From: Candidatus Moraniibacteriota bacterium
Lineage (GTDB): Bacteria; Patescibacteriota; Minisyncoccia; JAHIHE01; JAGLIN01
Length of the DNA stretch: 42,777 nt
Assembly (NCBI GenBank): GCA_030638895.1
Contig: DAOWDS010000020.1
Coordinates: 1-42,777 of the forward strand
Direction of reading: 5' to 3'
Positions 1,622 through 42,777 of the stretch are shown here, in pieces. A program made the position numbers and the translations under genes. The notes under the pieces were generated by a model. That model was given only the letters and a program-made list of their open reading frames with translations. It was not told the origin of the DNA and did no database searches. The first letter of the stretch is position 1. Each line of letters begins with the position of its first letter.

Positions 1622-1689
1622 ATTTTAAAATTTTGTCTATTTCGAAAATATAATATACAATAAATATTATGGAACATATAGTGGTACTA

Positions 1690-1825
1690 CTTTAAATTAC
1701 CCTGTCATCCTGAACTTGTTTCAGGATCTTTTGACTGCTACATCTAGCTTAAAATGAGTAAACATAACTTTTGTCATACGCAGATTCTGAACTAAATTCA
1801 GAATGACAAACCGGTAAATTTAAAG
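1690..1825 (+). repeat. Nested-palindrome MITE-like element, copy 1
   Basis: Head TGTCATCCTGAACTTGTTTCAGGATC and tail ATTCTGAACTAAATTCAGAATGACA. Outer inverted arms CTTTAAATTACC / GGTAAATTTAAAG. Same architecture as the copies at 23189, 24765 and 31008. Confidence 0.75.
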
Positions 1826-1864
1826 CAATATCATTATATAATTAAAAAATAGATAAATTTATAA

Positions 1865-3475: not shown

Positions 3476-3560
3476 AACATAATTTATATAAGTTTATATT
3501 TGAATTTTGAATTTTTTTCTTGCGAAATAACAAAATTGTGCTATTCTATATAAGTATTTT

Positions 3561-3633
3561 GCGGATGTAGTTCAGTGGCTAGAACGTCTCCTTGCCAAGG
3601 AGAAGGTCGCCGGTTCGACTCCGGTCATCCGCT
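3561..3633 (+). tRNA. tRNA-Gly (GCC)
   Basis: Cloverleaf read by eye: acceptor GCGGATG/CATCCGC, anticodon loop TTGCCAA, T-loop TTCGACT. No encoded CCA. Confidence 0.9.
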
Positions 3634-3647
3634 CAGAATTAAAAAGT

Positions 3648-3672
3648 ACACTAGAATTACTAGTGTTTTTTT
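3648..3672 (+). terminator. Rho-independent terminator after tRNA-Gly
   Basis: Stem ACACTAG/CTAGTGT followed by a T7 run. Confidence 0.7.
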
Positions 3673-3769
3673 GTGATAAAATAAAAATTATGTTTATAGC
3701 GCAAAACTATTTATCATAAAAATAAAATTAAATATCCTGCAACTTTATTCATTTGTGTTGTTTTTATTA

Positions 3770-4564
3770 TTATACAGAGTCAGCTTCTTGATATATGATT
3801 GATCCGCAGTGCTTACAATGAGTCGCGTCAACATCATGTTGTCTTAGTCCGCATTTGTCACATATAATAAATCTTTTTCTGGATATAGAAAATATAATTT
3901 CTCGCACTAATAATGCTAATTGCCATGGAATTAAAGCAATACTTATTAAAATCATCAGAACAGTAACTTCTTTTCCGATATTTGTTATCGGAGTAATATC
4001 TCCATATCCAACAGTCGTAAGGGTAACAATAGAGAAATATACAGCGTCACCAAGATTATTAATTAAAGGATTAGTATTTTTTTCTACCTCATAAATAAAT
4101 GATGAAAAAACAAAAATGATTGTAGTAATTATAAATATAATTCTAACAATGCGAACTTGATGTAATCGAACGTCTTTAGATAAAAATGAATTGCTTTTTA
4201 TGTATCTCATAAACCGGAAAATTCTAAAAACTCTCAAAATTCTCACAAAACGCATATCAATAAAAGTAACCAATGTTGGTAATATTGCGATTAAATCAAT
4301 TAAGCTATATATATGAAGCATATGTTTAAATTTATTTTCAGCAGTCCATAGTCTTAGAATATATTCAATTATAAAAATTGAAACAGTTACTATTTCAATT
4401 TTCCAGAAAAGCGATGGATTAACGTTATAATAGTAACTTTCAATTATAAATACAATTACCGTAATAATATTTAATGATATGATAAAATACTCAATAAATT
4501 TACCGATACTTGTTTTGTCATCATTCAAATAATATCTAATGAACCCTTTTATTTTTCTAATCAT
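3770..4564 (-). CDS. Voltage-gated-type K+ channel (ion transport family) with C-terminal zinc ribbon
   Basis: Selectivity filter TTVGYGD, S4-like RFVRILRVFRIFRFMRY, C-terminal CDKCG...CKHCG. Confidence 0.85.
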   Translation of the reverse strand: MIRKIKGFIRYYLNDDKTSIGKFIEYFIISLNIITVIVFIIESYYYNVNPSLFWKIEIVTVSIFIIEYILRLWTAENKFKHMLHIYSLIDLIAILPTLVTFIDMRFVRILRVFRIFRFMRYIKSNSFLSKDVRLHQVRIVRIIFIITTIIFVFSSFIYEVEKNTNPLINNLGDAVYFSIVTLTTVGYGDITPITNIGKEVTVLMILISIALIPWQLALLVREIIFSISRKRFIICDKCGLRQHDVDATHCKHCGSIIYQEADSV

Positions 4565-23188: not shown

Positions 23189-23350
23189 TAAATCTACCTT
23201 TTTCTATTTTGTCATTCCGGACTTGATCCGGAATCTTTTATCTTGTTGGTAATACTTTGCTAGCTTCACAAAGTCTAATGTTTCTAACCGTAGATTCTGA
23301 TCCGCCAGCTGGCGGACAAAATGACATTTTTTTACAAAGATAAACTTGAA
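23189..23350 (+). repeat. Nested-palindrome MITE-like element, copy 2
   Basis: AAATCTACCTTTTT..TGTCATTCCGGACTTGATCCGGAATC...TTCACAAAG...TAACCGTAGATTCTGATCCGCCAGCTGGCGGACAAAATGACA...AAAGATAAACTTG. Confidence 0.8.
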
Positions 23351-23418: not shown

Positions 23419-24105
23419 ATGCTAGAACAAAAAATAGTAAATAAATTGTCAAAAGAGCTGCAAATCGCTCCTGAATTTATTGTCAGAGAAACTTGGGAAA
23501 TTATTATTTTAAAAGAGCTATTCGCTAAAAAATGGTCCGAAAAACTTGTTTTTAAGGGCGGAACTGCTTTGCGGCTGGCATATCAATCACCGCGTTTTTC
23601 AGTAGATCTTGATTTTTCAGTTTTGGCAAAAATAAATCCCAAAGATTTTTTCAGTTTTTTAAGCGCCTTGGGAAAAAAATATTCAGAACTGGAAATCATA
23701 GACAAAAAAGACAAGTTTTATACTCTCTACGCTCAAATTAAAATTAAAGAGGCTTTTTTGAACAGACCGTTTTCTATTAAAATTGAAATTTCAAAAAGAA
23801 AAAATCAATTCAAAAAAAACGAACATCTGCCAAAAGTTTTGAAAACTCTTGTTTATCCTATTGAGGTTCTCTGTGATACCGCCACGCTGGAAAAAATATA
23901 TCGTGACAAAATCACCACTATTCAAAACCGGCAAGCGCCTCGCGATTTATTTGATCTCTGGTATCTTTCGGAAAAATTAAACAAGTCCTTCAGGCCACCA
24001 AGCACAAAATTGACAAAAAAAAATATTAAAAGCGAATTGCATAAATTTCTTCCTCTAAATTATCAAAAGTCGGTAAAATTTATTATTAGCCAAATTAATA
24101 AATAA
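23419..24105 (+). CDS. abiEii: AbiEii/AbiGii-family nucleotidyltransferase toxin (type IV TA)
   Basis: LVFKGGTALRLAYQSPRFSVDLDF N-terminal NTase motif; 228 aa. Confidence 0.8.
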   Translation: MLEQKIVNKLSKELQIAPEFIVRETWEIIILKELFAKKWSEKLVFKGGTALRLAYQSPRFSVDLDFSVLAKINPKDFFSFLSALGKKYSELEIIDKKDKFYTLYAQIKIKEAFLNRPFSIKIEISKRKNQFKKNEHLPKVLKTLVYPIEVLCDTATLEKIYRDKITTIQNRQAPRDLFDLWYLSEKLNKSFRPPSTKLTKKNIKSELHKFLPLNYQKSVKFIISQINK

Positions 24106-24109
24106 TTTT

Positions 24110-24715
24110 ATGCGAATAAAAATAAAGATAGACAAAATCAAAAATTACAATAAAACGTTTTTTACTTTAAACGATTTAACGAAAATTTTTAATGTTAAAG
24201 AAGAGTCTCTTAAGGTAACATTGAATAGGTGGGTAAAAAACGGAAGAATTATCAGGTTAAGAAAAAATGTTTATCAATTTCCAGATAAAATTTATGATGT
24301 CAAAAAAATCGCCTTTCAGCTTTATAAACCGTGCTATTTGTCTTTTGAATCCGTTTTAAATGAGTACGGCATATTAAGCCAAATTCCATACACCTTAACA
24401 TTTGCCACAATAAACAAATCAAAAAAGATAATTCTTAAATCGCAGAAAATTGAATTTCACCAAATTAAAGAAACTTTGTTTTTCGGTTATGAATTTCGAA
24501 ATGGAATATTTCTCGCTATGCCAGAAAAAGCTCTCGCGGATCAAATCTATTTTGTTTCCCGCGGCTTAGCTGTTCTAAATTTCAAAGAATTGGATTTGAA
24601 AAATGTTTCCTGGAAAAAATTCAATTCTTTTGTTAAGTGCTACCCAAAATCAACACAGCTTTTAGCCAAAGAAATTAAACTTTATTTCGGCAAAACAGCC
24701 ATTACGATTAAATAA
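24110..24715 (+). CDS. abiEi: AbiEi-family antitoxin (wHTH transcriptional regulator)
   Basis: N-terminal FFTLNDLTKIF...LKVTLNRWVKNGRIIRLRKNVYQF wHTH typical of AbiEi. Lies 4 nt after abiEii, so the gene order is toxin first. Confidence 0.7.
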   Translation: MRIKIKIDKIKNYNKTFFTLNDLTKIFNVKEESLKVTLNRWVKNGRIIRLRKNVYQFPDKIYDVKKIAFQLYKPCYLSFESVLNEYGILSQIPYTLTFATINKSKKIILKSQKIEFHQIKETLFFGYEFRNGIFLAMPEKALADQIYFVSRGLAVLNFKELDLKNVSWKKFNSFVKCYPKSTQLLAKEIKLYFGKTAITIK

Positions 24716-24764: not shown

Positions 24765-24955
24765 AAATTTACCTTTTTATTCTGTCATTCTGGATAGTTT
24801 CACCTGTCATTCCGGACTCGATCTGGAATCTTTTTCTTTTAGGTGACACTTTCTCAATTTCACAAAAATAGAAGTTACCAACCATAGATTCTGAATTAAG
24901 CCTGCCTACCAGCAGGCAGATTCAGGATGACAATTTTTAAAAAGATAAACTTGGA
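24765..24955 (+). repeat. Nested-palindrome MITE-like element, copy 3 (duplicated head)
   Basis: AAATTTACCTTTTTATTCTGTCATTCTGG...CTGTCATTCCGGACTCGATCTGGAATC...TTCACAAAA...AACCATAGATTCTGAATTAAGCCTGCCTACCAGCAGGCAGATTCAGGATGACA..AAAGATAAACTTGG. Confidence 0.8.
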
Positions 24956-24988
24956 AAAAATGGAAGAAGTTTAAGCAAAATCGGATAT

Positions 24989-25198
24989 TCAATCCTTCAA
25001 ATTTCTTCTCATGACTATTTCGTTTTCCTCTTTTGTGTTGGTATTCTTACCGCCACAATATGAACAAAACTCAAAATCTTGATCACACTGGAAAACGAAA
25101 TAACTTCCACATTTTTTGCATTTATAATTCACCTCAATATGTATAAATGCAAGTCCTAATTTCAGCAGAATATAATCTGCTATTGTTTTGTTCATCAT
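24989..25198 (-). CDS. Small zinc-ribbon protein (69 aa)
   Basis: CKKCG...CSYCGG. The ATG lies 7 nt after a GGAGG that overlaps the stop of the upstream ORF (translational coupling). Confidence 0.6.
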   Translation of the reverse strand: MMNKTIADYILLKLGLAFIHIEVNYKCKKCGSYFVFQCDQDFEFCSYCGGKNTNTKEENEIVMRRNLKD

Positions 25199-25201
25199 TT
25201 A

Positions 25202-25576
25202 TCACCTCCACATGAACATCCTAAAAAGAAATACGGTCATACCAATCGTACAATATACTGCGTATACTTGTGTTAATGTAGCGTTGGTTAAACTAGAATA
25301 ACCAATCCCTATCACCACACAACAAAGAAAAATGCTTGCTAGTATACCCAAAATTCTGTCTCCCTTTTTTTCTTCTGTATTAAAAAAACAGTAGAAAAGT
25401 CCAGAAAAGACTACAAACAACACAAATGCCCATACTAATAATCCAGCAACAAATGACGTTGCTAACTCAACTCCAAAAATTTTCAACACAAAGCTAACAG
25501 TATTTGTAATAATAAATACAACAAACAAAATTACAAATGTTGAAATTCCTGCAGCACCAGCTCCTCCTAAGGACAT
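25202..25576 (-). CDS. Small 4-TM membrane protein (124 aa)
   Basis: Four hydrophobic helices; AGGTGA RBS 5 nt before the ATG; ends in TGA. Confidence 0.6.
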   Translation of the reverse strand: MSLGGAGAAGISTFVILFVVFIITNTVSFVLKIFGVELATSFVAGLLVWAFVLFVVFSGLFYCFFNTEEKKGDRILGILASIFLCCVVIGIGYSSLTNATLTQVYAVYCTIGMTVFLFRMFMWR

Positions 25577-25996
25577 GTAATCACCTGTTCGCTCCCAAAT
25601 TTCATCAAAGCAGAATTACAAAACATTTCGTCTTGTAATCAAATCATATTGTGACGCTTCTCAATTTAAAGGAGCTATAAACTTGATGCCTGAACTATCG
25701 TTCAGGACTTAAAGTTGATTATAATAATTTACAATCAATTATAAGCCCTAAAGATTTTTGAGATATTTTGATTTCAAAGAACAATTTCCTTCCCAAATCA
25801 GGCAAACAGCTTGGAAAGAGATTTAATAGATTTTTAAATATACAATTTAAAAATATAATAAAATTCTGCCTACCTGATTTTGAAAGATAATATTTATTTG
25901 TTGGCTCCATACTCCGTGTAGAGCCTTTGTTATTGGTTCAATGTCTCTGATTTGAATCATAATTCATCAACTCTCAAATATATTCAAGAGCTTTTC

Positions 25997-26135
25997 TAAA
26001 TTTATCTTTTTGTTTCGGAGTCCTGACAAAAGTCAGGGTGAAGCTTCGTTAGGCGTTATTATAAAATAATATCTATTGAGACTTCACCTCCGACTTTCGT
26101 CGGAACTCCAAATTTTTATAAAAGATAAACTTGGA
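25997..26135 (+). repeat. MITE-like element, variant interior, copy 4
   Basis: Same termini (CTAAATTTATCTTTTT ... AAAGATAAACTTGGAAAAAATGG) but different internal hairpins (CCTGAC-AAAA-GTCAGG; TCCGAC-TTTC-GTCGGA). Confidence 0.7.
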
Positions 26136-26402
26136 AAAAATGGCGAAGAGAAAAAACGATTTTTATTTCGAATTTTCTCTCTAAGACTTTTTTCTGATCT
26201 ATATTTTCTTTAATTTCAGCTTCAGCTTTAAATTTTTTATCACCTTCAACAATCCCTGAAATTTCAGGTGTTGGGAGGTTTGTTTTATGATTCTTTGGAA
26301 CTGGCATTATTTCTGAGCTCATACATTTATCTTAATTACTTTATCTCTATTTTAGCCTATTTTTGAAAAAATTCAAAGGTTTTGTGAAATATTTACGTTT
26401 TT

Positions 26403-26434
26403 GGTGACGAGCACCTTTTTGGGTGCCCGTCACC
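26403..26434. other. GC-rich 13 bp-stem hairpin upstream of hypF
   Basis: GGTGACGAGCACC-TTTTTG-GGTGCCCGTCACC (one mismatch). No U-tract follows on either strand. Confidence 0.5.
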
Positions 26435-26496
26435 TCTATGTTTGTATAAAGTTTAACGACATTATATAATATAATAAGTAAATATAATTGTAATAG

Positions 26497-27849
26497 ATGA
26501 AAATTAATCAAAACATAATCATTCTCGCTCTTGGCGCTGAATCTTGCGGAAGATTTGCTGTTTATTCTAATGGTGAAATTTTTGTGTCGGAGAATTTTGG
26601 CGACCTTTTGCGGAAAGAAAATTTTAAAAAATATAAAAAATCGGTTTTAAAACAAATCAAAACCAAAAAACCAGATGTGATTTTAACAGATTTACATCCG
26701 CTTTATGTTTCAACAGTTTTAGGAGAAGAATTATCAGAAAAACATAAAATTTCACATATCAAAGTTCAACATCATATCGCCCATATATTCTCAGCAGTTG
26801 GAGATAAATTTTATTGCGAAGAGCAATGTCATAACAATTTTACTTCTTGTCATCCTGAGCTTGTCAAAGAATCTTTGCTTAATGGACTTGCAAGAAATTA
26901 TTTGACTGCTTCGCCAACTGACGAATCTGCTCAGTATAACAGAGTTAATTTTATAATAAATACTAAATACTTAATACTTAATACTTTCTATGGTATTGCT
27001 TCTGATGGAACAGGCTATGGTTTTGATGAAAATATTTGGGGTGGAGAAGTTTTTAAGTTCACTCAAATAGGTCCCACTGACAAAGCCTGTCCTGAGCGAA
27101 AGTCGAATGGAGGGGCTAGGGGGTTAGAAAACGGCCAAAGAACAGAGACTCTTCGACAGGCTCAGAGTGACAAGATTGAAAGAATTGGCTCACTTGAGGA
27201 ACAGATAATGATTGGCGGAGATTTGGCGGTAAAAGAGCCGGCGCGGATGCTTATCAGTATTTTAAATAAATTTTTATCAAAAGATAAAGTTTACAAAAAT
27301 GTAAAAGGATATTATACAAATAATGAATTTGAACTTTTATATAGCCAGCTTCAACAAAATTTCAACTGCCAAACAACAACAAGTACTGGAAGAATTCTAG
27401 ACGCCGTGTCAGTTTTGCTTGAATTCGCAAAAAATGAAAGAAGATCAAAACACGGAGCAATAAAACTTCTTGAAAAAAATTCGACTATTCCATATAAATT
27501 AACGCCAAAAATTAAGAATGATGAATCAAGAAAGATTATAGATACTACCTATTTATTTGAATATCTGCTGAAAAATATTTCAAAAGATAAAAAAAGATTA
27601 GCCGCCACAGCGCAGGAATATATAGCTAAAGGATTTGATGAAATTGTGAAAGAAAGATTAGTTTTAAACGAAAATATACTAAATATTAAATACCGCATAC
27701 TAAATATTTATTTCGCCGGAGGCATGGCAAACAATAAAATTATGTCTTCTTATCTTGAAAATAAAGGTATTTATATATCAAAAAAAATCTCTCGCGGTGA
27801 CGAAGGAATTGCGTTTGGACAGATTATGTATTATCTGTTAAATTTTTAA
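26497..27849 (+). CDS. hypF: HypF-like carbamoyltransferase, Kae1-like C-terminal domain only, with in-frame repeat insertions
   Basis: LALGAESCGRF...GDL, DLHPLY, VQHHIAHI, DGTGYG..WGGE and GGMANN...DEGIAFGQ match the HypF C-terminal domain. No acylphosphatase, Zn-finger or YrdC-like parts. Confidence 0.75.
   Translation: MKINQNIIILALGAESCGRFAVYSNGEIFVSENFGDLLRKENFKKYKKSVLKQIKTKKPDVILTDLHPLYVSTVLGEELSEKHKISHIKVQHHIAHIFSAVGDKFYCEEQCHNNFTSCHPELVKESLLNGLARNYLTASPTDESAQYNRVNFIINTKYLILNTFYGIASDGTGYGFDENIWGGEVFKFTQIGPTDKACPERKSNGGARGLENGQRTETLRQAQSDKIERIGSLEEQIMIGGDLAVKEPARMLISILNKFLSKDKVYKNVKGYYTNNEFELLYSQLQQNFNCQTTTSTGRILDAVSVLLEFAKNERRSKHGAIKLLEKNSTIPYKLTPKIKNDESRKIIDTTYLFEYLLKNISKDKKRLAATAQEYIAKGFDEIVKERLVLNENILNIKYRILNIYFAGGMANNKIMSSYLENKGIYISKKISRGDEGIAFGQIMYYLLNF
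26848..26943 (+). repeat. In-frame palindromic-element insertion 1 in hypF (96 bp)
   Basis: TGTCATCCTGAGCTTGTCAAAGAATCTT ... GAATCTGCTCAGTATAACAG, homologous to the copy-1 head and tail. Encodes CHPELVKESLLNGLARNYLTASPTDESAQYN. Confidence 0.65.
27088..27174 (+). repeat. In-frame palindromic-element insertion 2 in hypF (GC-rich)
   Basis: TGTCCTGAGCGAAAGTCGAATGG ... CTTCGACAGGCTCAGAGTGACA inverted arms. Encodes CPERKSNGGARGLENGQRTETLRQAQSD. Local GC is far above the flanking sequence. Confidence 0.65.
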
Positions 27850-29454: not shown

Positions 29455-29826
29455 TTATTTTTTACCCTTTAAAGTTAAAATACTTGAAGCTATAATTTTT
29501 GATATTTCAATCAGTTCATCTAATAGCCATTTTATTTCTTCTTTATTACCTTTGTCGGTATCCCTTAAAAGTGTTAACCAAACCTTAGATTCGTTGGATG
29601 ATTTAAGAGAATAAGTAAAAAAGTTTATAAAGTCTTTTTTAGAACTGGCAGAATTTGCTTCTATGTAATTTGCTAAAATGCTTGTGCCGCTTCTTAGAAG
29701 TTGCTTTCCAATAACATTACATGTTGAATCTTTTGGCAGCTTATCAACAAACTTTATCATTCTTAAAGCCCAATTATAAAGTCTTTTTTTGAATTCATTT
29801 TTAAACTTTACATCGTCATTTTCCAT
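29455..29826 (-). CDS. Four-helix-bundle protein (23S rRNA intervening-sequence protein family)
   Basis: LRSGTSILANYIEANSASSKKDFINFFTYSLKSSNESKVWL matches the family pattern. Confidence 0.75.
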   Translation of the reverse strand: MENDDVKFKNEFKKRLYNWALRMIKFVDKLPKDSTCNVIGKQLLRSGTSILANYIEANSASSKKDFINFFTYSLKSSNESKVWLTLLRDTDKGNKEEIKWLLDELIEISKIIASSILTLKGKK

Positions 29827-29847: not shown

Positions 29848-30981
29848 TTATATATATTTCGCCTCAATCCCGCAAGCACCCTCTGAAGAAACCATACACG
29901 CGCCAACCGGATTTTCAGGGGTGCATTTTTTATTAAATAATTTGCAATCTTTCGGTTGTTTAAGCCCGCGAAGAATTGTTCCGCAAAGACACTGTTTACT
30001 AATGTTATTCTGGAGTGAAACGATAGAATCCCGTAATTCAGCTCCTTGAGTTGTGGTATCGGGATTCTTCATTTCGCTATCGCTCCATTCAGAATGACAG
30101 TTTGATAAAATATTTTTATATTTAATCTTTGCATTATACTTTGAATATTTTTTTCTTATTTCTAAACCGGAATTTGGAATATTTCCAAGCCCTCTCCAAA
30201 AAGCGTTTCCTGTTTCAAAAACTTCATCAACGAGTTTCAACGCTGCTGGGTTTCCTTCGGGCCGAACAGATCTTGCATATTCGTTTTCAACTTCCGCTCT
30301 GCCTTCCGCGACTTGCCTTAAAATCATATAAATTGCAATAAGAACATCTTCTCCAGTAAAACCGGCGATAACTTGAGGTAATTTAAATTTTTTATAAGGA
30401 TCTATTCCGATTATTGTTGAAACATGTCCCGGATCTAAAAAACCGTCGATTTTTAACTGTGGAGTATCAATAATGGCTTGCATCGCGGGAACAAAAAGTT
30501 TATGAGACGAATATACGGTTAGACTTCTCTTAATCGCGCTTGCTGTCATTGGGGTCGTTGTATCAAACCCAACTCCAAAAAAAACTAGATCCTGGTTTTC
30601 TTTTTGTAATTTCAATGCGTCTTCCGTTGAATATACTTCATTAACATCCGCTCCAAGTTCGCGCGCTTTATTGAGGCTTAAACTTTGTTTTTCTTTGTCA
30701 GATTTTAAAACTAAATTTCCTGGAACGCGAAGAACATCTCCATAACAAGCAATTGGCACGCCATTTAGCGCCAGGGTTATTATCGCATCAACGTCTTTTT
30801 GGTCTGTAACACAAACCGGGCATCCAGGCCCAGAAAGAAGTTTCACGTTTTTCGGCAAAATTTTCTTAATGCCGTTTTTCGCAACTGCTTCCGTATGCGT
30901 TCCGCAAAGCTCCATAATCACAATATCGCGACTGATTTTTTTTGCGAGAGTTTCTATTTTTTTGATTATATTAAAAGTCAT
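29848..30981 (-). CDS. hypD: Hydrogenase maturation protein HypD with a 32-aa in-frame insertion
   Basis: MELCGTHTEA, GPGCPVCVT and C-terminal CTPENPVGACMVSSEGACG. Confidence 0.9.
   Translation of the reverse strand: MTFNIIKKIETLAKKISRDIVIMELCGTHTEAVAKNGIKKILPKNVKLLSGPGCPVCVTDQKDVDAIITLALNGVPIACYGDVLRVPGNLVLKSDKEKQSLSLNKARELGADVNEVYSTEDALKLQKENQDLVFFGVGFDTTTPMTASAIKRSLTVYSSHKLFVPAMQAIIDTPQLKIDGFLDPGHVSTIIGIDPYKKFKLPQVIAGFTGEDVLIAIYMILRQVAEGRAEVENEYARSVRPEGNPAALKLVDEVFETGNAFWRGLGNIPNSGLEIRKKYSKYNAKIKYKNILSNCHSEWSDSEMKNPDTTTQGAELRDSIVSLQNNISKQCLCGTILRGLKQPKDCKLFNKKCTPENPVGACMVSSEGACGIEAKYI
30003..30098 (-). repeat. In-frame palindromic-element insertion in hypD (96 bp)
   Basis: Inverted arms TGTTATTCTGGAGTGAAACGATAG / CTATCGCTCCATTCAGAATGACA with inner GAATCCCG/CGGGATTC. 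Encodes CHSEWSDSEMKNPDTTTQGAELRDSIVSLQNN. Confidence 0.7.
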
Positions 30982-31007: not shown

Positions 31008-31158
31008 TAAATCTACCTTTTTAATTTTGTCATTTCAGGCAACATCATCTGTCATTCCGGACTTGATCCGAAATCTTTTATCCCTTAGGTAATGCTCTGT
31101 TAATTTCACAAATCTTTTTATTACTAACCGAAGATTCTGAATTAAATTCAGAATGACA
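31008..31158 (+). repeat. Nested-palindrome MITE-like element, copy 5, in the hypC-hypD spacer
   Basis: AAATCTACCTTTTTAATTTTGTCATTTCAGG...CTGTCATTCCGGACTTGATCCGAAATC...TTCACAAATC...TAACCGAAGATTCTGAATTAAATTCAGAATGACA. Confidence 0.8.
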
Positions 31159-32844: not shown

Positions 32845-32874
32845 AACAGCCAACTATTCCAATACTAATATAAT

Positions 32875-32890
32875 TGTTTCACGTGAAACA
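32875..32890. promoter_or_regulatory. parS: parS centromere-like site A (perfect consensus)
   Basis: TGTTTCACGTGAAACA; extended palindrome AATTGTTTCACGTGAAACAATT at 32872-32893. Confidence 0.8.
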
Positions 32891-33164
32891 ATTGAGAATG
32901 TCGTTTTAAGCCTATTTATAAAAAATCATAACTTACACTATTAATACGTATTTATATATGAAAGAATAGAAAGTACTAAACTAAATTCAGCGCAACAATG
33001 GTTGTTGTCAAATTAGAATTCATAATAACATACTAACATAATCACGTAATAACATTTTAACATAACAATTATGCGTAGTAATTTTAATTGTTAAAATGCT
33101 ATTATTAGGACGCAGAAAAATACTTTTTATAGCTGTCTATAAATAATACTATACCAGAAATAAG

Positions 33165-33295
33165 AAAGGTTCAGGTTGGACTTGTTTAGTTTATAGATCT
33201 CGCAGTCGTTATCGCTCTTTCGAGATGACAAAAGTGTTCTTCTGCAGTCTAACCCGTATTAACACAATGCTTCGACAAGTTCAGGATGTCATTTA
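33165..33295. repeat. Degenerate MITE-like element
   Basis: Contains CGAGATGACAAAAG and GACAAGTTCAGGATGTCAT (the latter is the reverse complement of the copy-1 head) plus the inner inverted repeat ATCTCG/CGAGAT. Confidence 0.45.
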
Positions 33296-33383: not shown

Positions 33384-35030
33384 CTATTCTTGAGTGTTTC
33401 TTGAAATTGCCAGTATTAAGGCTAAAACTAACCAAAAGATTAAACGACCCTGTTGTAATGTCCAAAAATAATGATCAAATATTCCTATAAATAAAAATGA
33501 TATTAATATTGCGATTAAAAAATAGTTTAATTTCCTTATATCTAAAATTGTTTCACGTGAAACAATTTTTATTGATCCTAAAATAACATATATTATAAAA
33601 AGAAGGAAAATTAATAAGCCAACCAAGCCAATCTCAGAGGCAATTAAAAAATAGATATTATGAGCGGGCTGATATTGCCATGACTCAAGTTCTTGTTTGA
33701 TATTATTATTTTCAAGATAATTATTGATTTGAAAAATAGATGTTCCTATTCCAGAACCAAAAAGAAAATTGTTTGAAATTGTTTCACGTGAAACAATATT
33801 ATAAAATGTTCTATCAGAAAAAGCAGAATTATTAGACAAAGTATCGTTACTAAACAAAGCTCCGTCAATTCGCGCTTGAATTAAAGAAAAATTTGAAATA
33901 ATTAAAAATAAAGATAAAAAACAAACAATAATTAATTCTTTATAGCAAAAAAGTAATTTTAGTATTTTTTTATAATTATTAACTGGTTTTAATAAAATTG
34001 TTTCACGTGAAACAATTTTATGGTCATAAAGATAAAGCACGCTTATCACAAATAAAGACAACAAAAATCCTATCCAAGCAGTTCTCGAAAATGTAAAAAA
34101 TATCGCCGCAGTTTGAACAAATATAAGAGTTATCCATAATAAAGAATATAATATATCTTGACTTTGGATACTATTTATGTTATTATATTGAAATAATCTT
34201 AAAAATTTAATTGTTTTAATATACACAAATTTAAATATTTGTGTCAAACAAATGTAAATAAACATTTTCTTATTTTCTGAATATGCTCTAAAGTCTAATT
34301 GACTTGACAAACTACATCTTTTATGTTCTAAATATAAATAAATTGTAATTACTGTCGTAAAAATTAAAAAACCTCCAAGAATGTTTGGATGAGGAAAAGT
34401 TCCATAAGCTCTTATTATTTTTTCACCGTCCACTGCTATCTTTGCAACTCCCGGAATTTGCGGACCAATAACTGATTCTCCTGTAATTTTAGCCAAAATT
34501 GGAGAAGAAAAAACTGAATGTTGCGCAATAAACTGATAAATTGCGATAAGACTCTGTAAAAAGCCGGAGAAAACTATAATAAACAAGCTCGTAAACAATG
34601 TTTTACTGTTTTTAAAATTAAAATAAACAAAAATCACTAAAAGAGATAATTCTATTAATTTAACTGTTTGAAAAATGTTTATTTTTGGATAATTATTGTT
34701 AATTGCTAAATTTAGCGTTATCCAAATAAAAAAAACAAGTAAAAACAACCAGACTTTGGGCAGCTTAGCTCCCTTTTTAAATTTATTATATATAGATTTA
34801 GATACTTCACTTAAGTAGGAAAAATTTTTAAAAATAAAAAAGATCCAAAAAAATATAGCTAAGATCAAAAAAATATCAGACGCATAGACAAACAAGGTTG
34901 TCCATTCAGTAAATGCGTCACTATAGAATGAATAATCAGTCAAAAAAACCTTCCTCGTTTGAAAGGGGATTAAAAATAGAAATAAATAGAAAAAATAGAT
35001 GTGTAGATTGTTAAGTTTTATCAACTTCAT
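33384..35030 (-). CDS. O-antigen ligase/polymerase (Wzy_C) family membrane protein carrying three in-frame parS sites
   Basis: 548 aa polytopic protein; FTFSRTAWIGFLLSLFV and QPAHNIYFLIASEIGLVGL motifs; IVSRETI appears three times. Confidence 0.75.
   Translation of the reverse strand: MKLIKLNNLHIYFFYLFLFLIPFQTRKVFLTDYSFYSDAFTEWTTLFVYASDIFLILAIFFWIFFIFKNFSYLSEVSKSIYNKFKKGAKLPKVWLFLLVFFIWITLNLAINNNYPKINIFQTVKLIELSLLVIFVYFNFKNSKTLFTSLFIIVFSGFLQSLIAIYQFIAQHSVFSSPILAKITGESVIGPQIPGVAKIAVDGEKIIRAYGTFPHPNILGGFLIFTTVITIYLYLEHKRCSLSSQLDFRAYSENKKMFIYICLTQIFKFVYIKTIKFLRLFQYNNINSIQSQDILYSLLWITLIFVQTAAIFFTFSRTAWIGFLLSLFVISVLYLYDHKIVSRETILLKPVNNYKKILKLLFCYKELIIVCFLSLFLIISNFSLIQARIDGALFSNDTLSNNSAFSDRTFYNIVSRETISNNFLFGSGIGTSIFQINNYLENNNIKQELESWQYQPAHNIYFLIASEIGLVGLLIFLLFIIYVILGSIKIVSRETILDIRKLNYFLIAILISFLFIGIFDHYFWTLQQGRLIFWLVLALILAISRNTQE
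33549..33564. promoter_or_regulatory. parS: parS site B
   Basis: TGTTTCACGTGAAACA within the 26 bp palindrome AAAATTGTTTCACGTGAAACAATTTT (33544-33569). Confidence 0.8.
33780..33795. promoter_or_regulatory. parS: parS site C
   Basis: TGTTTCACGTGAAACA, preceded by a partial duplication AAAATTGTTTGAAATTGTTT. Confidence 0.8.
33999..34014. promoter_or_regulatory. parS: parS site D
   Basis: TGTTTCACGTGAAACA within AAAATTGTTTCACGTGAAACAATTTT (33994-34019). Confidence 0.8.
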
Positions 35031-40818: not shown

Positions 40819-41103
40819 TTACTCAACTTTATACATTTTAGATATCTCAAGATATTCAGTAATATTAAAATCATATTCTTTTTTGTTTTCATCTTTGAGA
40901 TATTTCTTTTCAAGATATTTGAAAATTGAAGGCCTGTTAGACAATGCGTGCCAATCTCCAAGCCCTTCGCTTAAATAGACAGTTTTTAGATTGTTATCTT
41001 TTTTAAATTGAATCGCAACTTTGATAATTTCATCACATAAGATTTTCTCGTCAACTTCATAGAGAAAGCTTGAGTTTGGGTTTATTCCACGCAGTAAAAG
41101 AGA
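40819..41103 (-). CDS. Open frame (95 codons) continuing the upstream large ORF after an A8 tract; reached by a -1 shift
   Basis: SLLLRGINPNSSFLYEVDEKILCDEIIKVAIQFKKDNNLKTVYLSEGLGDWHALSNRPSIFKYLEKK...KMYKVE. No usable start codon of its own. Confidence 0.55.
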   Translation of the reverse strand, partial: SLLLRGINPNSSFLYEVDEKILCDEIIKVAIQFKKDNNLKTVYLSEGLGDWHALSNRPSIFKYLEKKYLKDENKKEYDFNITEYLEISKMYKVE

Positions 41104-42776
41104 TTTTTTTTGTCATCATCAATAATATAAGCTTGAATATTGCCCCTTATTATTTCATTGTTTTTCCCGATATCTTCAACTAAATTAATGTGGAAATGAT
41201 CTTTGCGATTAAAAAGATCCATATTGTCTGCGGTGCAGATCCCAGCTGAAGCTTTGGAGAAGAAAGATCCGATGTTTTTTGAAATATACGCTTTTAGAGC
41301 AATCTTTTCTTTTTTCATCCTACTCGTTCCTTCTTTTTGATATTTTTCTATAATCTTGTTCAATTCTTTGCTTATCTTTTCTCTTTCTGTCTTTATTATT
41401 TTGTTTTCAACAAAAGTTGATAATAATATGCTTATTTTTTCTATATCTAAATCTTCCCAATATTCATCAGTTAATATTTTGTTATCTTTTTTAAGTTCTT
41501 TTCTGATAGACTTGATAAATGCTTCTTTCTTGTTTTTGTCTTGCAATGTTTGTATTATTCTGTCTTTTATCTCAGGATTTTCATTTAAAAAATTTTCAAG
41601 CTCTTCTTTAAAATTATCTTTAAAAATAATTCCAAGGACTCCCTTTGTTTCAAATAGGTAATTATATAAATCATTTATATTATTTTTATCAAAATGTTTT
41701 TCTGACAAAGAGGAAATATTTTCATTTTTTATTATGCTTATTAAATATGATAAGTTATTGCTATCTAAGCTTGGAGAAGCTTTGGTAATTTTGTCTAAAA
41801 CTTTAGAAACTTTTTGATTATAATCCTCTTCTTTGTTTTTCTCAACTGATCTTTTTATTATCCTTGCTACATACTCTATGTTTTTAAAATTGATTTCTTT
41901 TCCTTTTCTAATAACTTTTTCTGTAGGAGCTACTATGTTAATTTCATATCCATCTTCTGGAAACTTGTATCTTGCTAAGTCTCCTGTTTTGTCTTGTAAT
42001 TCTTTAAGGTATTTCTTAACTTCATTAAAACTCATTCCAATGGGATTATACACGATGTAAATTAATTCTGCCATTTCATCAAAATTTCTTTTCATATCAA
42101 TTGGATTGTTTTTAAACATTCCTTTTTTATTTTCATTTATTTCATTTACATAAATATCTCTTTCTTTTGAATCAAACTTTTTATACTTTTCAAAGATAAT
42201 TGGAAATATGTTTCCAAACTTATCAAGCATATCAAAGATATCTTTATAATCTTTTTCTATATCTATATTCCCATTCTCGCTAATAGTTTCTAAAACATTA
42301 TTTGCGGTGTTACTGTATTGATTGAATAGTTTCTTTAGAAAGCTTATCTCTTGTTCGTTATGCTGTTCCATACTTATTGTTTGATTTAAACTATTTATTG
42401 ATTCATATCCTATTTTAGAAATATTGCTTTTGTTAATCATGTCGTTTTTGATAGTGTATTCAAGATTTTTTTCTTTTGCGTATTCTAAAATATATCTAAC
42501 ATTTTCATTTGCGCACATTTTCTCAAATTCTTGAGTAGTTTTAATCTGGTAAAGATTAACGACATATTTAAGATTTTTTTCTTTTGCGTATCTTAAAACG
42601 TCTTTAACATTTTCATTTGCGCACATTTTCTCAAATTCTTGAGTAGTTTTAATCTGGTAAAGATTAACGGCATGTTTAAGATTTTCTTCTTTTGCGTATT
42701 CTAAAATATATCTAACATTTTCATTTGCGCACATTTTCTCAAATTCTTGAGTAGTTTTAATCTGGTAAAGATTAAC
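41082..42776 (-). CDS. Large hypothetical protein with N-terminal 36-aa tandem repeats, 5' end beyond window, interrupted at an A8 tract
   Basis: The frame stays open to the window edge (VNLYQIKTTQEFEK upstream of the annotated Met). No recognised family. Confidence 0.6.
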   Translation of the reverse strand, partial: VNLYQIKTTQEFEKMCANENVRYILEYAKEENLKHAVNLYQIKTTQEFEKMCANENVKDVLRYAKEKNLKYVVNLYQIKTTQEFEKMCANENVRYILEYAKEKNLEYTIKNDMINKSNISKIGYESINSLNQTISMEQHNEQEISFLKKLFNQYSNTANNVLETISENGNIDIEKDYKDIFDMLDKFGNIFPIIFEKYKKFDSKERDIYVNEINENKKGMFKNNPIDMKRNFDEMAELIYIVYNPIGMSFNEVKKYLKELQDKTGDLARYKFPEDGYEINIVAPTEKVIRKGKEINFKNIEYVARIIKRSVEKNKEEDYNQKVSKVLDKITKASPSLDSNNLSYLISIIKNENISSLSEKHFDKNNINDLYNYLFETKGVLGIIFKDNFKEELENFLNENPEIKDRIIQTLQDKNKKEAFIKSIRKELKKDNKILTDEYWEDLDIEKISILLSTFVENKIIKTEREKISKELNKIIEKYQKEGTSRMKKEKIALKAYISKNIGSFFSKASAGICTADNMDLFNRKDHFHINLVEDIGKNNEIIRGNIQAYIIDDDKKNLFYCVE

Positions 42777-42777
42777 G
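42455..42777 (-). repeat. 108 bp tandem repeat (about 3 units, continuing past the window edge)
   Basis: GCGCACATTTTCTCAAATTCTTGAGTAGTTTTAATCTGGTAAAGATTAACG recurs at 42511, 42619 and 42727 (period exactly 108 bp = 36 codons). Confidence 0.85.

What the first reader, a model, noticed from the sequence alone, without database searches (positions are those of the whole stretch)
30003..30098. 96 bp palindromic element inserted in frame in hypD
Immediately before the conserved C-terminal CxC...CTPENPVGACMVSSEGACG region, hypD carries an exact 96 bp (32-codon) imperfect palindrome. Its arms are TGTTATTCTGGAGTGAAACGATAG / CTATCGCTCCATTCAGAATGACA and the inner stem is GAATCCCG/CGGGATTC. On the coding strand it reads TGT CAT TCT GAA = CHSE, the same phase as the hypF insertions and the same length as hypF insertion 1. 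Three in-frame hits in one functional gene set suggest either tolerance at loop sites or selection for frame-preserving insertions.
Basis: partly seen in the sequence, partly recalled or inferred. Interest (0 to 1): 0.7.

Follow-up and report, generated by a model that had tools for sequence, protein, structure and literature searches.

The report
Palindromic repeat inserted in hypD
A 97-base palindromic DNA repeat from a family found in many bacterial phyla sits in frame in a flexible linker of the hydrogenase-maturation gene hypD of a Patescibacteria genome; it is a new example of a known phenomenon (as in Rickettsia), not a new kind of element.

Summary
hypD (29848-30981, minus strand) carries a palindromic segment at 30003-30099. 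It adds about 30 residues to the linker just before the Fe-S cysteine motif, the only poorly modelled part of an otherwise confident AlphaFold model.

It is not private to hypD. The window holds at least seven elements with the same ends (TGTCATYCYGR...YCRGRATGACA; 10 termini against 0.07 expected). The same ends recur in elements from more than 15 phyla and in viral contigs.

Each end is a tagged stem-loop: TGTC, a stem starting with A-T, then C. This matches the published CGTC/TGTC-tagged REP superfamily, which includes Rickettsia RPE-4 and RPE-6 and Neisseria dRS3/NTS. Members are known to occur in frame inside genes. In other genomes the same units flank small GIY-YIG (Ssn-type) nuclease genes.

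The shared reading phase is forced: only one of the element's six frames lacks a stop codon. Family lengths show no multiple-of-3 bias.

Patescibacteria HypD has three such insertion hotspots.

Verdict: a new member of a known kind, of moderate interest.

The parts
30003..30099 (-). The element (E6): an inverted pair of TGTC-tagged stem-loop units around a 26-nt spacer. It is 97 nt end to end, and codons 295-326 of hypD (30004-30099) are read through it.
   Evidence: It is 100% identical in L001-L003.
30060..30099 (-). 5' unit on the coding strand: TGTC | ATTCT-(22 nt)-AGAAT | C, followed by CCG, which starts the inner stem.
   Evidence: It is 39/40 identical to the orthologous copy in L005. 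On its own it does not fold stably as ssDNA.
30003..30033 (+). The second unit, read on the + strand: TGTT | ATTCT-(13 nt)-AGAAT | C CCG. Its tag has degenerated from GTC to GTT.
30034..30059 (-). Spacer or central loop between the complementary ends CCCG and CGGG.
29848..30981 (-). The host gene hypD (377 aa). All invariant HypD residues and the four Fe-S cysteines are intact.
31050..31158 (+). E7: a family copy (109 nt) in the hypC-hypD spacer. Its 3' unit has a 9-bp stem.
26848..26941 (+). E4: a family copy in frame in hypF (CHPELVKESLLNG...).
27088..27172 (+). E5: a degenerate family copy in frame in hypF (ACPERKSNGG...LRQAQSD).
1703..1808 (+). E1: an intergenic copy with two textbook units (8-bp stem, 5-nt loop). 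It is nested in a larger palindrome (1676-1839).
23210..23326 (+). E2: an intergenic copy (117 nt).
24783..24932 (+). E3: an intergenic copy with a reiterated 5' terminus (TGTCATTCTGG at 24783 and TGTCATTCCGG at 24805).

Best explanation
The segment is a gene-less, non-autonomous palindromic repeat. It is an inverted pair of TGTC-tagged stem-loop units from the CGTC/TGTC-tagged REP superfamily, also described as Ssn-related motifs. That superfamily includes Neisseria dRS3/NTS and Rickettsia RPE-4 and RPE-6.

A copy came to occupy the linker between HypD domain II and its Fe-S cluster domain. It is transcribed and translated with the gene and gives about 30 extra residues that form a flexible surface loop.

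It persists for three reasons. The net length change keeps the frame. The one stop-free frame of the element is the one in use. The linker tolerates almost any sequence.

Shown here:
- the repeat family and its architecture
- the in-frame insertion
- the loop location
- the stop-codon constraint on reading phase
- recurrent occupation of the same three HypD loops in relatives

Inferred: the units are (or were) ssDNA hairpin sites for a small single-domain GIY-YIG (Ssn-type) nuclease. Genes for such nucleases are flanked by the same units like a tiny insertion sequence, so the gene-less dimers would spread in trans.
For: Family and architecture:
- The window holds 10 exact TGTCATYCYGR termini against 0.07 expected, making seven elements.
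- The same ends bound 261 distinct elements of 92-122 nt, from genomes of more than 15 phyla including cultured isolates, and from 106 viral stretches.
- Each terminus covaries with a segment inside its own arm (ATCCT>AGGAT in 55 of 59; ATTCT>AGAAT in 39 of 42). It covaries much less with the other terminus. So the unit is a tag plus a local hairpin, and the element is an inverted dimer of such units.

Literature match:
- Di Nocera 2013 describes a CGTC tag 'changed to TGTC' in many repeats, stems starting with A-T pairs, predominant dimers with 20-100 bp spacers, intragenic copies encoding 20-30 aa, and RPE-4/-6 and dRS3 as members.
- Chenal 2025 defines the NTS as CGTCATTCCC..GGGAATC. The three nt before the palindrome and the C after it are needed by the SsnA nuclease, and NTS-ssnA-NTS looks like an IS.
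- In my own loci, six single-domain GIY-YIG ORFs (Pfam PF01541) are each flanked within 15-63 nt by these units.

Insertion in a tolerated loop:
- PDB alignment.
- AlphaFold mean pLDDT of 92, with only residues 291-330 weak.
- Foldseek TM-score 0.81-0.84 to 2z1d and 3vyr.
- Three insertion hotspots across 94 orthologues.

Frame filter:
- One of six frames is open in E6.
- The intergenic copies E1 and E3 have none open.
- Family lengths show no modulo-3 bias.

DNA-like rather than protein-like evolution:
- In the insert, nt identity is 0.88, third-position identity 0.91 and aa identity 0.69.
- In the rest of the gene these are 0.74, 0.53 and 0.78.

In-frame copies elsewhere:
- Two copies in a LeuRS gene of an alphaproteobacterial MAG.
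- One copy in a Parcubacteria NlpC/P60 protein.
Against: - No second copy of the exact E6 subtype was found in the data held. Its mobility is therefore inferred from family membership.
- E6's own units are eroded. The stems are 5 bp with 22- and 13-nt loops, one tag is GTT, and neither unit folds on its own as ssDNA (z about 0.3-0.5).
- The published degenerate SRM search sequence finds nothing in the window and matches only 4 of 261 elements.
- No Ssn/GIY-YIG gene occurs in the window or in 241 kb of Patescibacteria DNA held.
- Transposition by Ssn has not been shown by anyone. Di Nocera found no dedicated transposase for CGTC repeats.
- No truly empty site was found among close relatives, so the exact insertion boundaries and any target duplication are undetermined.
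Confidence: 0.8

Rival explanations
1. The element is kept because its nucleotide sequence has a function. It could be a protein-binding or ssDNA-nuclease site that marks the hyp cassette, or an mRNA hairpin that stabilises the transcript or pauses ribosomes before the Fe-S domain. On this reading it is not merely tolerated junk.
For: - Third-codon-position identity to the L005 orthologue is 0.88-0.91 only across the element, against 0.31-0.69 elsewhere (29 of 32 against 0.53, p = 6e-6).
- The 5' unit is 39/40 identical.
- Six of the seven window copies lie within 23.2-31.2 kb around the hyp genes.
- In Neisseria, NTS units cluster around particular genes and modulate transformation.
Against: - Close orthologues carry quite different sequences at the same site: a solo unit, other repeat families, or short non-palindromic linkers.
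- The 3' arm has diverged without compensation.
- Gene conversion from other genomic copies, or recent re-insertion, would give the same identity pattern.
- The clustering statistic is post hoc.
Confidence: 0.13
2. It is a classical miniature inverted-repeat transposable element. On this reading it is an internally deleted insertion sequence, moved as double-stranded DNA by a DDE transposase that recognises the 11-nt terminal inverted repeats.
For: - It has clear terminal inverted repeats, a length of 90-150 bp, many copies, and both intergenic and genic locations.
Against: - No consistent target-site duplication flanks any of the seven copies.
- The termini covary with a segment inside their own arm rather than with each other.
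- Solo units exist (L004 hypD, and window 33196-33230).
- No terminus-ORF-terminus unit with a transposase was found in about 2 Mb of loci. Small GIY-YIG genes are what the units flank.
Confidence: 0.05
3. The 32 residues are a lineage-specific functional loop of HypD that is selected at the protein level. The palindromy would then be incidental.
For: - The frame is kept open in all orthologues that have an insert.
- The peptide motifs HSEWSDSEMKNP and RDS recur among the close relatives.
Against: - Amino-acid identity (0.69) is lower than nucleotide identity (0.88), and there is no third-position relaxation.
- The loop is the only low-confidence part of the model.
- Orthologues with 77-81% identity have 19-residue linkers or unrelated repeats.
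- The same termini occur in six other elements in the window, four of them non-coding.
Confidence: 0.03
4. The segment is removed or skipped before the protein is made, by an intron-like excision, intein splicing or translational bypass. The in-frame reading would then be irrelevant.
For: - The segment begins with Cys and forms a strong hairpin whose ends are brought together.
- GC-rich palindromic inserts in yeast mitochondrial genes are bypassed by ribosomes (my own knowledge).
Against: - At 32 residues it is far below intein size, and it has no intein motifs.
- No Rfam family matches.
- Every genic copy examined is stop-free and frame-neutral, which would be unnecessary if it were skipped.
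Confidence: 0.02

Closest known systems
CGTC-tagged REPs, including Rickettsia conorii RPE-4 and RPE-6 (Di Nocera, De Gregorio & Rocco 2013, BMC Genomics 14:522; Ogata et al. 2000, Science 290:347)
   Same: - They carry an unpaired CGTC or TGTC tag and a stem that begins with A-T pairs.
- They occur mostly as inverted dimers with 20-100 bp spacers, some with complementary spacer ends.
- They occur inside ORFs of conserved proteins, where dimers encode 20-30 aa.
- No dedicated transposase has been found.
- Other copies in this window (E1, E2, E7) have the textbook 8-9 bp stem and 3-5 nt loop.
   Different: - The host phylum, Patescibacteria, was not among the five phyla reported.
- E6's units have 5-bp stems and 13-22 nt loops.
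- The tail is C plus T-rich or CCG, not CCA.
- I made no direct sequence comparison with RPE-4 or RPE-6.
- NCBIfam RPE-type models do not hit the peptide.
Neisseria NTS/dRS3 and other Ssn-related motifs, with their GIY-YIG ssDNA nuclease Ssn (Chenal et al. 2025, Nat Commun 16:2388)
   Same: - The unit layout is the same: (C/T)GTC, ATTCC..GGAAT-type palindrome, then C.
- The motifs occur in hundreds of copies, cluster near particular genes, and span many phyla.
- The same kind of unit flanks single-domain GIY-YIG genes in my loci L018, L064, L100, L122, L211 and L223.
   Different: - The published degenerate SRM sequence does not match any unit in the window.
- No ssn gene is seen in the Patescibacteria DNA held.
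- That paper does not treat in-frame genic copies or spaced dimers.
REPINs / GTAG REPs with RAYT transposases (Bertels & Rainey 2011; Nunvar 2010)
   Same: - They are inverted doublets of tagged hairpin units separated by a spacer.
- Singlets occur as remnants.
- The single-copy enzyme gene is flanked by the units.
- The proposed chemistry is ssDNA-hairpin based.
   Different: - The tag is TGTC, not GTAG.
- The associated gene is a GIY-YIG nuclease, not an HUH/Y1 transposase.
- No RAYT is seen.
Rickettsia RPE-1 and other in-frame MITE insertions (review PMC10969869)
   Same: - They are palindromic repeats inserted in frame in unrelated housekeeping genes.
- The insertion positions are judged compatible with protein fold and function.
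   Different: - RPE-1 is about 150 bp and has its own conserved peptide domain.
- It has no sequence relation to E6.
Mobile GC-rich palindromic clusters and 'byp' elements in yeast mitochondrial genes (my own knowledge, not checked here)
   Same: - They are short GC-richer palindromes scattered in an AT-rich genome, including inside protein-coding genes.
   Different: - Byps are skipped by the ribosome and need not be in frame.
- Here every genic copy is frame-neutral and stop-free.

Membership tests
CGTC/TGTC-tagged REP superfamily (Di Nocera 2013) | An unpaired tetranucleotide tag, CGTC (often TGTC or CCTC), at one end of the stem-loop | tested here: met
   The E6 5' unit carries TGTC and the second unit carries TGTT (degenerate). 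All other window copies carry TGTC, and the L004 orthologue carries CGTC.
CGTC/TGTC-tagged REP superfamily (Di Nocera 2013) | A stem whose first two pairs are A-T and T-A | tested here: met
   Both E6 units read ATTCT...AGAAT. Across 261 elements the pattern is ATYCY...RGRAT, with within-arm covariation.
CGTC/TGTC-tagged REP superfamily (Di Nocera 2013) | Stem of 8-9 bp and loop of 4-5 nt (Table 1 of the paper) | tested here: not met
   The E6 units have 5-bp perfect stems with 22- and 13-nt loops and do not fold alone. Sister copies in the window do meet the criterion: both E1 units and the E2 5' unit are 8 bp/5 nt, and the E7 3' unit is 9 bp/3 nt. E6 is therefore an eroded or variant member.
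CGTC/TGTC-tagged REP superfamily (Di Nocera 2013) | Mostly organised as inverted dimers with spacers of 20-100 bp, which may fold as one large stem-loop | tested here: met
   E6 has two inverted units, a 26-nt spacer with complementary ends CCCG/CGGG, and a whole-element hairpin. Whether this corresponds to the paper's 'HH' or 'TT' class could not be decided from the text held.
CGTC/TGTC-tagged REP superfamily (Di Nocera 2013) | Multi-copy in the genome and not flanking a transposase gene | tested here: met
   The window holds seven elements plus a solo unit in 42.8 kb, or 10 termini against 0.07 expected. No transposase lies next to them. Only the window could be examined, not the genome.
Ssn-related motifs (SRM/NTS) with Ssn GIY-YIG nuclease (Chenal 2025) | A match to the published degenerate SRM search sequence HGTCWYN(0-2)YYVSBRHN(0-5)WNVSBRGN(0-2)RNCYNB | tested here: not met
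   There are 0 matches in the window, and 4 of 261 collected elements match at one or both ends. The regex does match the Neisseria NTS and the units around the L122 GIY-YIG gene.
Ssn-related motifs (SRM/NTS) with Ssn GIY-YIG nuclease (Chenal 2025) | GTC immediately 5' of the palindrome (needed for cleavage) and C immediately 3' (needed for binding) | tested here: met
   The E6 5' unit reads TGTC|ATTCT..AGAAT|C. The second unit has GTT|..|C.
Ssn-related motifs (SRM/NTS) with Ssn GIY-YIG nuclease (Chenal 2025) | A single-domain cd10448-type GIY-YIG gene in the same genome, typically flanked by the units | tested here: inconclusive
   None is present in the window or in 241 kb of Patescibacteria loci (tblastn), but the genome is not available. 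In other phyla, six such genes are flanked by the units, including the E6-like type TGTCATCCTGAGCGGAGCGAAGGAC in Hymenobacter glaciei.
Ssn-related motifs (SRM/NTS) with Ssn GIY-YIG nuclease (Chenal 2025) | Strand-specific binding and cleavage of the unit as ssDNA by the cognate Ssn | not testable with these tools
   This needs purified enzyme and oligonucleotides.
Rickettsia palindromic elements (RPE) | A palindromic repeat inserted in frame in conserved proteins at positions compatible with the fold | tested here: met
   Searches show this for HypD and for HypF.
Rickettsia palindromic elements (RPE) | Sequence relationship to the RPE families (RPE-1 peptide domain; RPE-4 and RPE-6 DNA) | tested here: inconclusive
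   NCBIfam gives no hit to the insert peptides at E <= 1.
GTAG REP / REPIN-RAYT | A GTAG tag and an associated RAYT (IS200/IS605-like Y1 transposase) gene | tested here: not met
   The tag is TGTC, and the flanked genes found are GIY-YIG, not Y1 transposases.
Classical TIR-MITE | Terminal inverted repeats plus a target-site duplication of fixed length | tested here: not met
   TIRs are present, but the flanks of the seven copies share no duplication. The termini covary within an arm, not between arms.

The most novel reading that the evidence does not exclude
The genic copies are not merely tolerated. The tagged units would be maintained at the nucleotide level as recognition sites for an Ssn-like ssDNA nuclease or another hairpin-binding factor. 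Together they would bracket the hyp gene cassette (six of the seven window copies lie around hypF-hypE-hypD-hypC) and so control its exchange or recombination as single-stranded DNA, as NTS units do for transformation in Neisseria. In a genome with almost no intergenic space, these sites would have to sit inside protein loops.
Probability: 0.1. Interest if true: 0.7.

Novelty: new member of a known kind. Interest (0 to 1): 0.38.

Why it matters
This case extends a known oddity, tagged palindromic repeats translated inside housekeeping proteins, to the Patescibacteria (candidate phyla radiation). I found no report of such repeats in that group.

It also ties three literatures to one sequence signature, TGTC/CGTC + A-T-start hairpin + C: Rickettsia RPEs, CGTC REPs, and Neisseria NTS with the Ssn nuclease.

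For annotation, it explains why HypD, HypF and other proteins of these genomes vary in length by tens of residues, and why they contain recurring peptides such as CHPE/CHSE...QND.

For protein science, the three insertion hotspots form a natural map of where HypD tolerates 20-45 extra residues.

For repeat biology, it offers in-frame copies whose nucleotide conservation exceeds that of the surrounding synonymous sites. That is a testable handle on whether such repeats are selected as DNA.

Tried and rejected
1. Link to the 23S-rRNA-IVS (four-helix-bundle) gene between hypD and hypE. phmmer with the window protein found no such ORF in 842 kb around 120 elements. Dropped.
2. Rfam at gathering thresholds found only tRNAs in the window.
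3. Searching for other proteins that carry the E6 peptide. The exhaustive search with 32 aa gave 0 hits at E <= 0.001. The query is too short, so this says nothing about absence.
4. blastn of a canonical element against PLSDB plasmids gave no match at E <= 0.001. The query was again too short to be informative.
5. Looking for an autonomous element (terminus, then 0.4-3.5 kb with an ORF, then terminus) in all loci found none. The later motif search found the much smaller GIY-YIG genes instead.
6. The metagenome scan for HypD loci returned only 9 loci. That is too few for statistics, so orthologue DNA was fetched gene by gene.
7. Full-text searches for the terminal DNA words and for the typical peptides found only unrelated primer hits.
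8. Caulobacter CIR repeats as a possible identity: the paper is not held, so this was left untested.
9. The published SRM regex used as a membership test fails for nearly all elements. I treat it as too narrow rather than as an exclusion, because units that flank GIY-YIG genes in my own loci also fail it.
10. Intein, intron and bypass readings were rejected on size, the absence of motifs, and the universal frame preservation.
Full report
**The observation**

The minus-strand ORF 29848-30981 (377 aa) is HypD (Pfam PF01924, E = 2e-122; TIGR00075). Its outer arms are at 30003-30026 and 30077-30099, and its inner stem AGAATCCCG/CGGGATTCT is at 30025-30033 and 30060-30068.

The coordinates are one base off. 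The first T of TGTCAT is at 30099, so the element is 97 nt end to end. The 32 in-frame codons are 30004-30099, encoding CHSEWSDSEMKNPDTTTQGAELRDSIVSLQNN (residues 295-326).

The fold is far better than chance:
- As RNA it gives -30.2 kcal/mol, z = -4.46, matched by 0 of 200 shuffles.
- As ssDNA it gives z = -2.9 and -4.7 on the two strands.

The same protein is encoded on contigs of three independent metagenome assemblies, and the 97 nt are identical in all three. An assembly artefact is excluded.

**It is an insertion in a linker**

Against T. kodakarensis HypD (PDB 2z1d), residues 3-289 align to 15-309 and 326-376 to 318-368. That is 36 residues here against 8 there, directly before the C-X14-C-X6-C-X16-C Fe-S motif, which is intact.

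An AlphaFold model built on 94 orthologues has mean pLDDT 92.3. Its only weak stretch is residues 291-330, where the 10-residue blocks score 75, 43, 65 and 68. The model superposes on 2z1d, 3vyr and 3vys with TM-scores of 0.81-0.84.

More distant Patescibacteria HypD carry a plain 17-residue linker, K.ILDKVDFS.S.KPTG|C.CG.

**It belongs to a repeat family in the window**

The terminal word TGTCATYCYGR occurs 10 times in the window, against 0.07 expected. With degenerate ends included, these termini pair up into seven elements of 85-150 nt:
- E1, 1703-1808
- E2, 23210-23326
- E3, 24783-24932
- E4, 26848-26941, in frame in hypF
- E5, 27088-27172, in frame in hypF
- E6, in hypD
- E7, 31050-31158, in the hypC-hypD spacer

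A solo unit lies at 33196-33230. The two hypF insertions are confirmed against PDB 4g9i, with gaps at query 105-160 and 187-224.

**The family is spread across Bacteria**

I scanned one genome per species for TGTCATYCYGR-N70-100-YCRGRATGACA. These came from:
- Alpha-, Beta-, Gamma- and Deltaproteobacteria
- Acidobacteriota, Chloroflexota, Bacteroidota, Planctomycetota and Nitrospirota
- Firmicutes, Actinobacteria, Verrucomicrobiota and Gemmatimonadota
- Melainabacteria, Elusimicrobiota, Chlorobi, Armatimonadota and Synergistota
- five Patescibacteria

Cultured isolates such as Hymenobacter, Pedobacter, Flavobacterium, Phenylobacterium, Ancylobacter and Bifidobacterium are among them. The viral collection gave 106 stretches.

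Covariation across the 261 distinct elements shows what the unit is. The terminal ATYCY pairs with an RGRAT inside the same arm (ATCCT>AGGAT in 55 of 59; ATTCT>AGAAT in 39 of 42; ATTCC>GGAAT in 30 of 34). It pairs only loosely with the opposite terminus (for ATCCT: 38 AGAAT against 39 AGGAT). So the unit is TGTC + a local hairpin + C, and an element is an inverted pair of such units around a spacer.

**The family is already described**

Di Nocera, De Gregorio and Rocco (2013) defined 'CGTC-tagged REPs'. Their description covers:
[quoted passage not shown] - dimers as the predominant form, with 20-100 bp spacers that may have complementary ends
- presence in five phyla
- no associated transposase
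- copies inside ORFs of known proteins, with dimers encoding 20-30 aa

They equate CGTC-1 and CGTC-4 of Rickettsia conorii with RPE-6 and RPE-4, and CGTC-1 of Neisseria with dRS3.

Chenal et al. (2025) extended dRS3 to the 28-nt NTS, CGTCATTCCCGCGMAVGCGGGAATCYRG. They showed that a small single-domain GIY-YIG protein, SsnA, binds and cuts it only as ssDNA. The three nucleotides before the palindrome matter for cleavage and the C after it matters for binding. Homologues with their own 'Ssn-related motifs' are widespread, and the NTS-ssnA-NTS arrangement resembles an insertion sequence.

My loci reproduce that association independently. Six single-domain GIY-YIG ORFs (Pfam PF01541, E = 1e-15 to 1e-18) are each flanked within 15-63 nt by TGTC/CGTC units, mostly inverted on both sides. 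One of them, in Hymenobacter glaciei, is flanked by the same 5-bp-stem, long-loop unit type as the hypD copies. The roughly 100-nt dimers are thus most simply gene-less derivatives of these tiny units.

**Limits on membership**

- Table 1 of the 2013 paper gives stems of 8-9 bp and loops of 4-5 nt. E1, E2 and E7 fit this (8-9 bp stems, 3-5 nt loops). E6 does not: its stems are 5 bp, its loops are 22 and 13 nt, one tag has decayed to GTT, and its units do not fold on their own.
- The degenerate SRM search sequence of the 2025 paper matches nothing in the window and only 4 of 261 elements. It also fails on units that flank GIY-YIG genes in my loci, so I read it as too narrow.
- No ssn-like gene is present in the window or in 241 kb of Patescibacteria DNA held.
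- Nobody has shown that Ssn moves these repeats.

The link from E6 to an Ssn-type enzyme is therefore an inference.

**Frame and phase**

They do not need to.

- E6 has stops in five of its six frames and is read in the sixth.
- E4 and E5 have two and one open frames respectively, and each is read in an open one.
- The intergenic E1 and E3 have none open.
- The conserved ends themselves close a phase (TG TCA TTC TGA at one end, A TGA CA at the other). Across 261 elements that phase is open 91 times, against about 200 for each of the other two.
- Lengths are uniform modulo 3 (86/92/83, p = 0.79).

Frame neutrality is therefore a property of the survivors, not of the element.

In-frame copies are not peculiar to this genome. 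An alphaproteobacterial LeuRS carries two, one between the catalytic and editing domains and one in the anticodon-binding domain. A Parcubacteria NlpC/P60 protein carries one.

**HypD as a landing pad**

Patescibacteria HypD orthologues range from 339 to 486 aa. Almost all of the length variation sits at three sites, near residues 98, 200 and 293.

The inserts there translate several repeat families:
- TGTCATYCTGAG-type (CHPE/CHSE...QND)
- TGTCATTGCGAG-type (CHCE... or VIARS...ARNDK)
- ...PNPLPEGEG...
- ...PPDKGGWGV...
- mini-repeats such as LNTKYQILNT

On a neighbour-joining tree the types are patchy, not clade-specific.

At site 293, DNA from seven orthologues shows that all full-length copies share the right junction CAGAATGACA|TAA...TGT. 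Their arm loops and spacers differ. The 354-aa proteins retain a solo unit, CGTCATTCTGAGCTTGTCGAAGAATC. The simplest reading is long occupation of the site with turnover, erosion and partial deletion. Repeated insertion at the same point cannot be excluded.

**An unexplained detail**

Between the window and its relative L005, the insert is 88% identical in DNA, with 91% identity at third codon positions, but only 69% identical in protein. The rest of hypD is 74%, 53% and 78% identical by the same measures.

The third-position spike is confined to the element (0.88 over residues 289-320, against 0.31-0.69 elsewhere; 29 of 32 against 0.53, p = 6e-6). The 5' unit is 39/40 identical, while the 3' arm has drifted without compensation.

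So the segment evolves as DNA, not as protein. It is either younger than the gene divergence (re-insertion, or conversion from other copies) or constrained at the nucleotide level. This is the basis of the minority reading that the units are functional sites.

**Verdict**

The element is a new member, in a new host phylum and a new host gene, of a known kind of repeat with a known habit of sitting in frame inside proteins. It is of moderate interest. Its value lies in the link between RPE, CGTC-REP and NTS/Ssn, in the HypD insertion-tolerance map, and in the nucleotide-level conservation, which could be tested.

Noticed in passing
window 33540-33567, 33771-33798, 33990-34017 (and intergenic 32866-32893): A different perfect palindrome, AATTGTTTCACGTGAAACAATT, occurs four times. 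Three copies lie in frame inside the Wzy_C-type ORF 33384-35030 and each is read as IVSRETI. In-frame palindromic repeats are therefore not limited to the hyp genes or to the TGTC family in this genome.
   Followed up: partly
window 26953-26984 and 27676-27707 (hypF); the HypD linkers of many orthologues: An AT-rich mini-repeat (ATACTAAATACTTAATACT-like) is translated as NTKYLILNT or LNIKYRILN inside HypF. It appears as NSLNTKYQILNT in the site-293 linker of many HypD orthologues.
   Followed up: partly
window 26497-27849 and upstream 24930-26500: The 'hypF' ORF encodes only the Kae1-like C-terminal half (Pfam HypF_C and HypF_C_2). No acylphosphatase, zinc-finger or YrdC part lies upstream, only small unrelated ORFs on the other strand. 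It may be a truncated HypF or a split gene.
   Followed up: partly
window 29455-29826 (-): A 23S-rRNA-intervening-sequence-protein family gene (PF05635) is wedged between hypD and hypE, with a 21-nt gap to hypD. It shows no link to the TGTC elements.
   Followed up: partly
L243 (P0029, GCA_040960625.1) hypD 3001-4461; also P0020 and P0067: A tiny GC-rich hairpin, GCCTGCCTACCGGACAGGCAGGC (peptide PAYRTGRQ or CLPDRQA), is nested in the loops of TGTC-tagged units and also occurs alone in HypD linkers. This suggests a second tier of mini-elements that land in hairpin loops. Window E2 and E3 carry similar nested hairpins in their 3' units.
   Followed up: no
window 1676-1839: Element E1 sits exactly in the centre of a larger 30-nt-arm inverted repeat (arms 1676-1705 and 1810-1839, 77% complementary). 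It looks as if it was inserted into the loop of a pre-existing hairpin. Di Nocera reports the same for Halothiobacillus CGTC-1 dimers.
   Followed up: no
window 24783-24815 and 31027-31060; L012, L052, L104, L111: Some copies have the terminal word TGTCATYCYGR reiterated two or three times, about 20 nt apart, at one end. This hints at insertion next to, or into, existing termini.
   Followed up: no
L087 215-1522 (Dehalococcoidia chromosome OZ253489.1): Six nearly identical 121-nt elements lie within 1.3 kb, forming a local array of the family.
   Followed up: no
window 42459-42777: Three tandem copies of a 108-nt unit (93-98% identical) run to the end of the window, overlapping the 5' part of ORF 41082-42734 on the minus strand.
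   Followed up: no
window 23419-24715: An AbiEii/AbiEi toxin-antitoxin pair lies between elements E2 and E3, next to the hyp region (Pfam marks).
   Followed up: no
L164 5334-5434, L198 7725-7825, L210 4935-5037 (IMG/VR contigs): Large orthologous proteins on viral contigs (about 900 aa, no Pfam hit) carry in-frame family copies. L164 and L198 have one at the same site, and L210 has one at a different site.
   Followed up: partly
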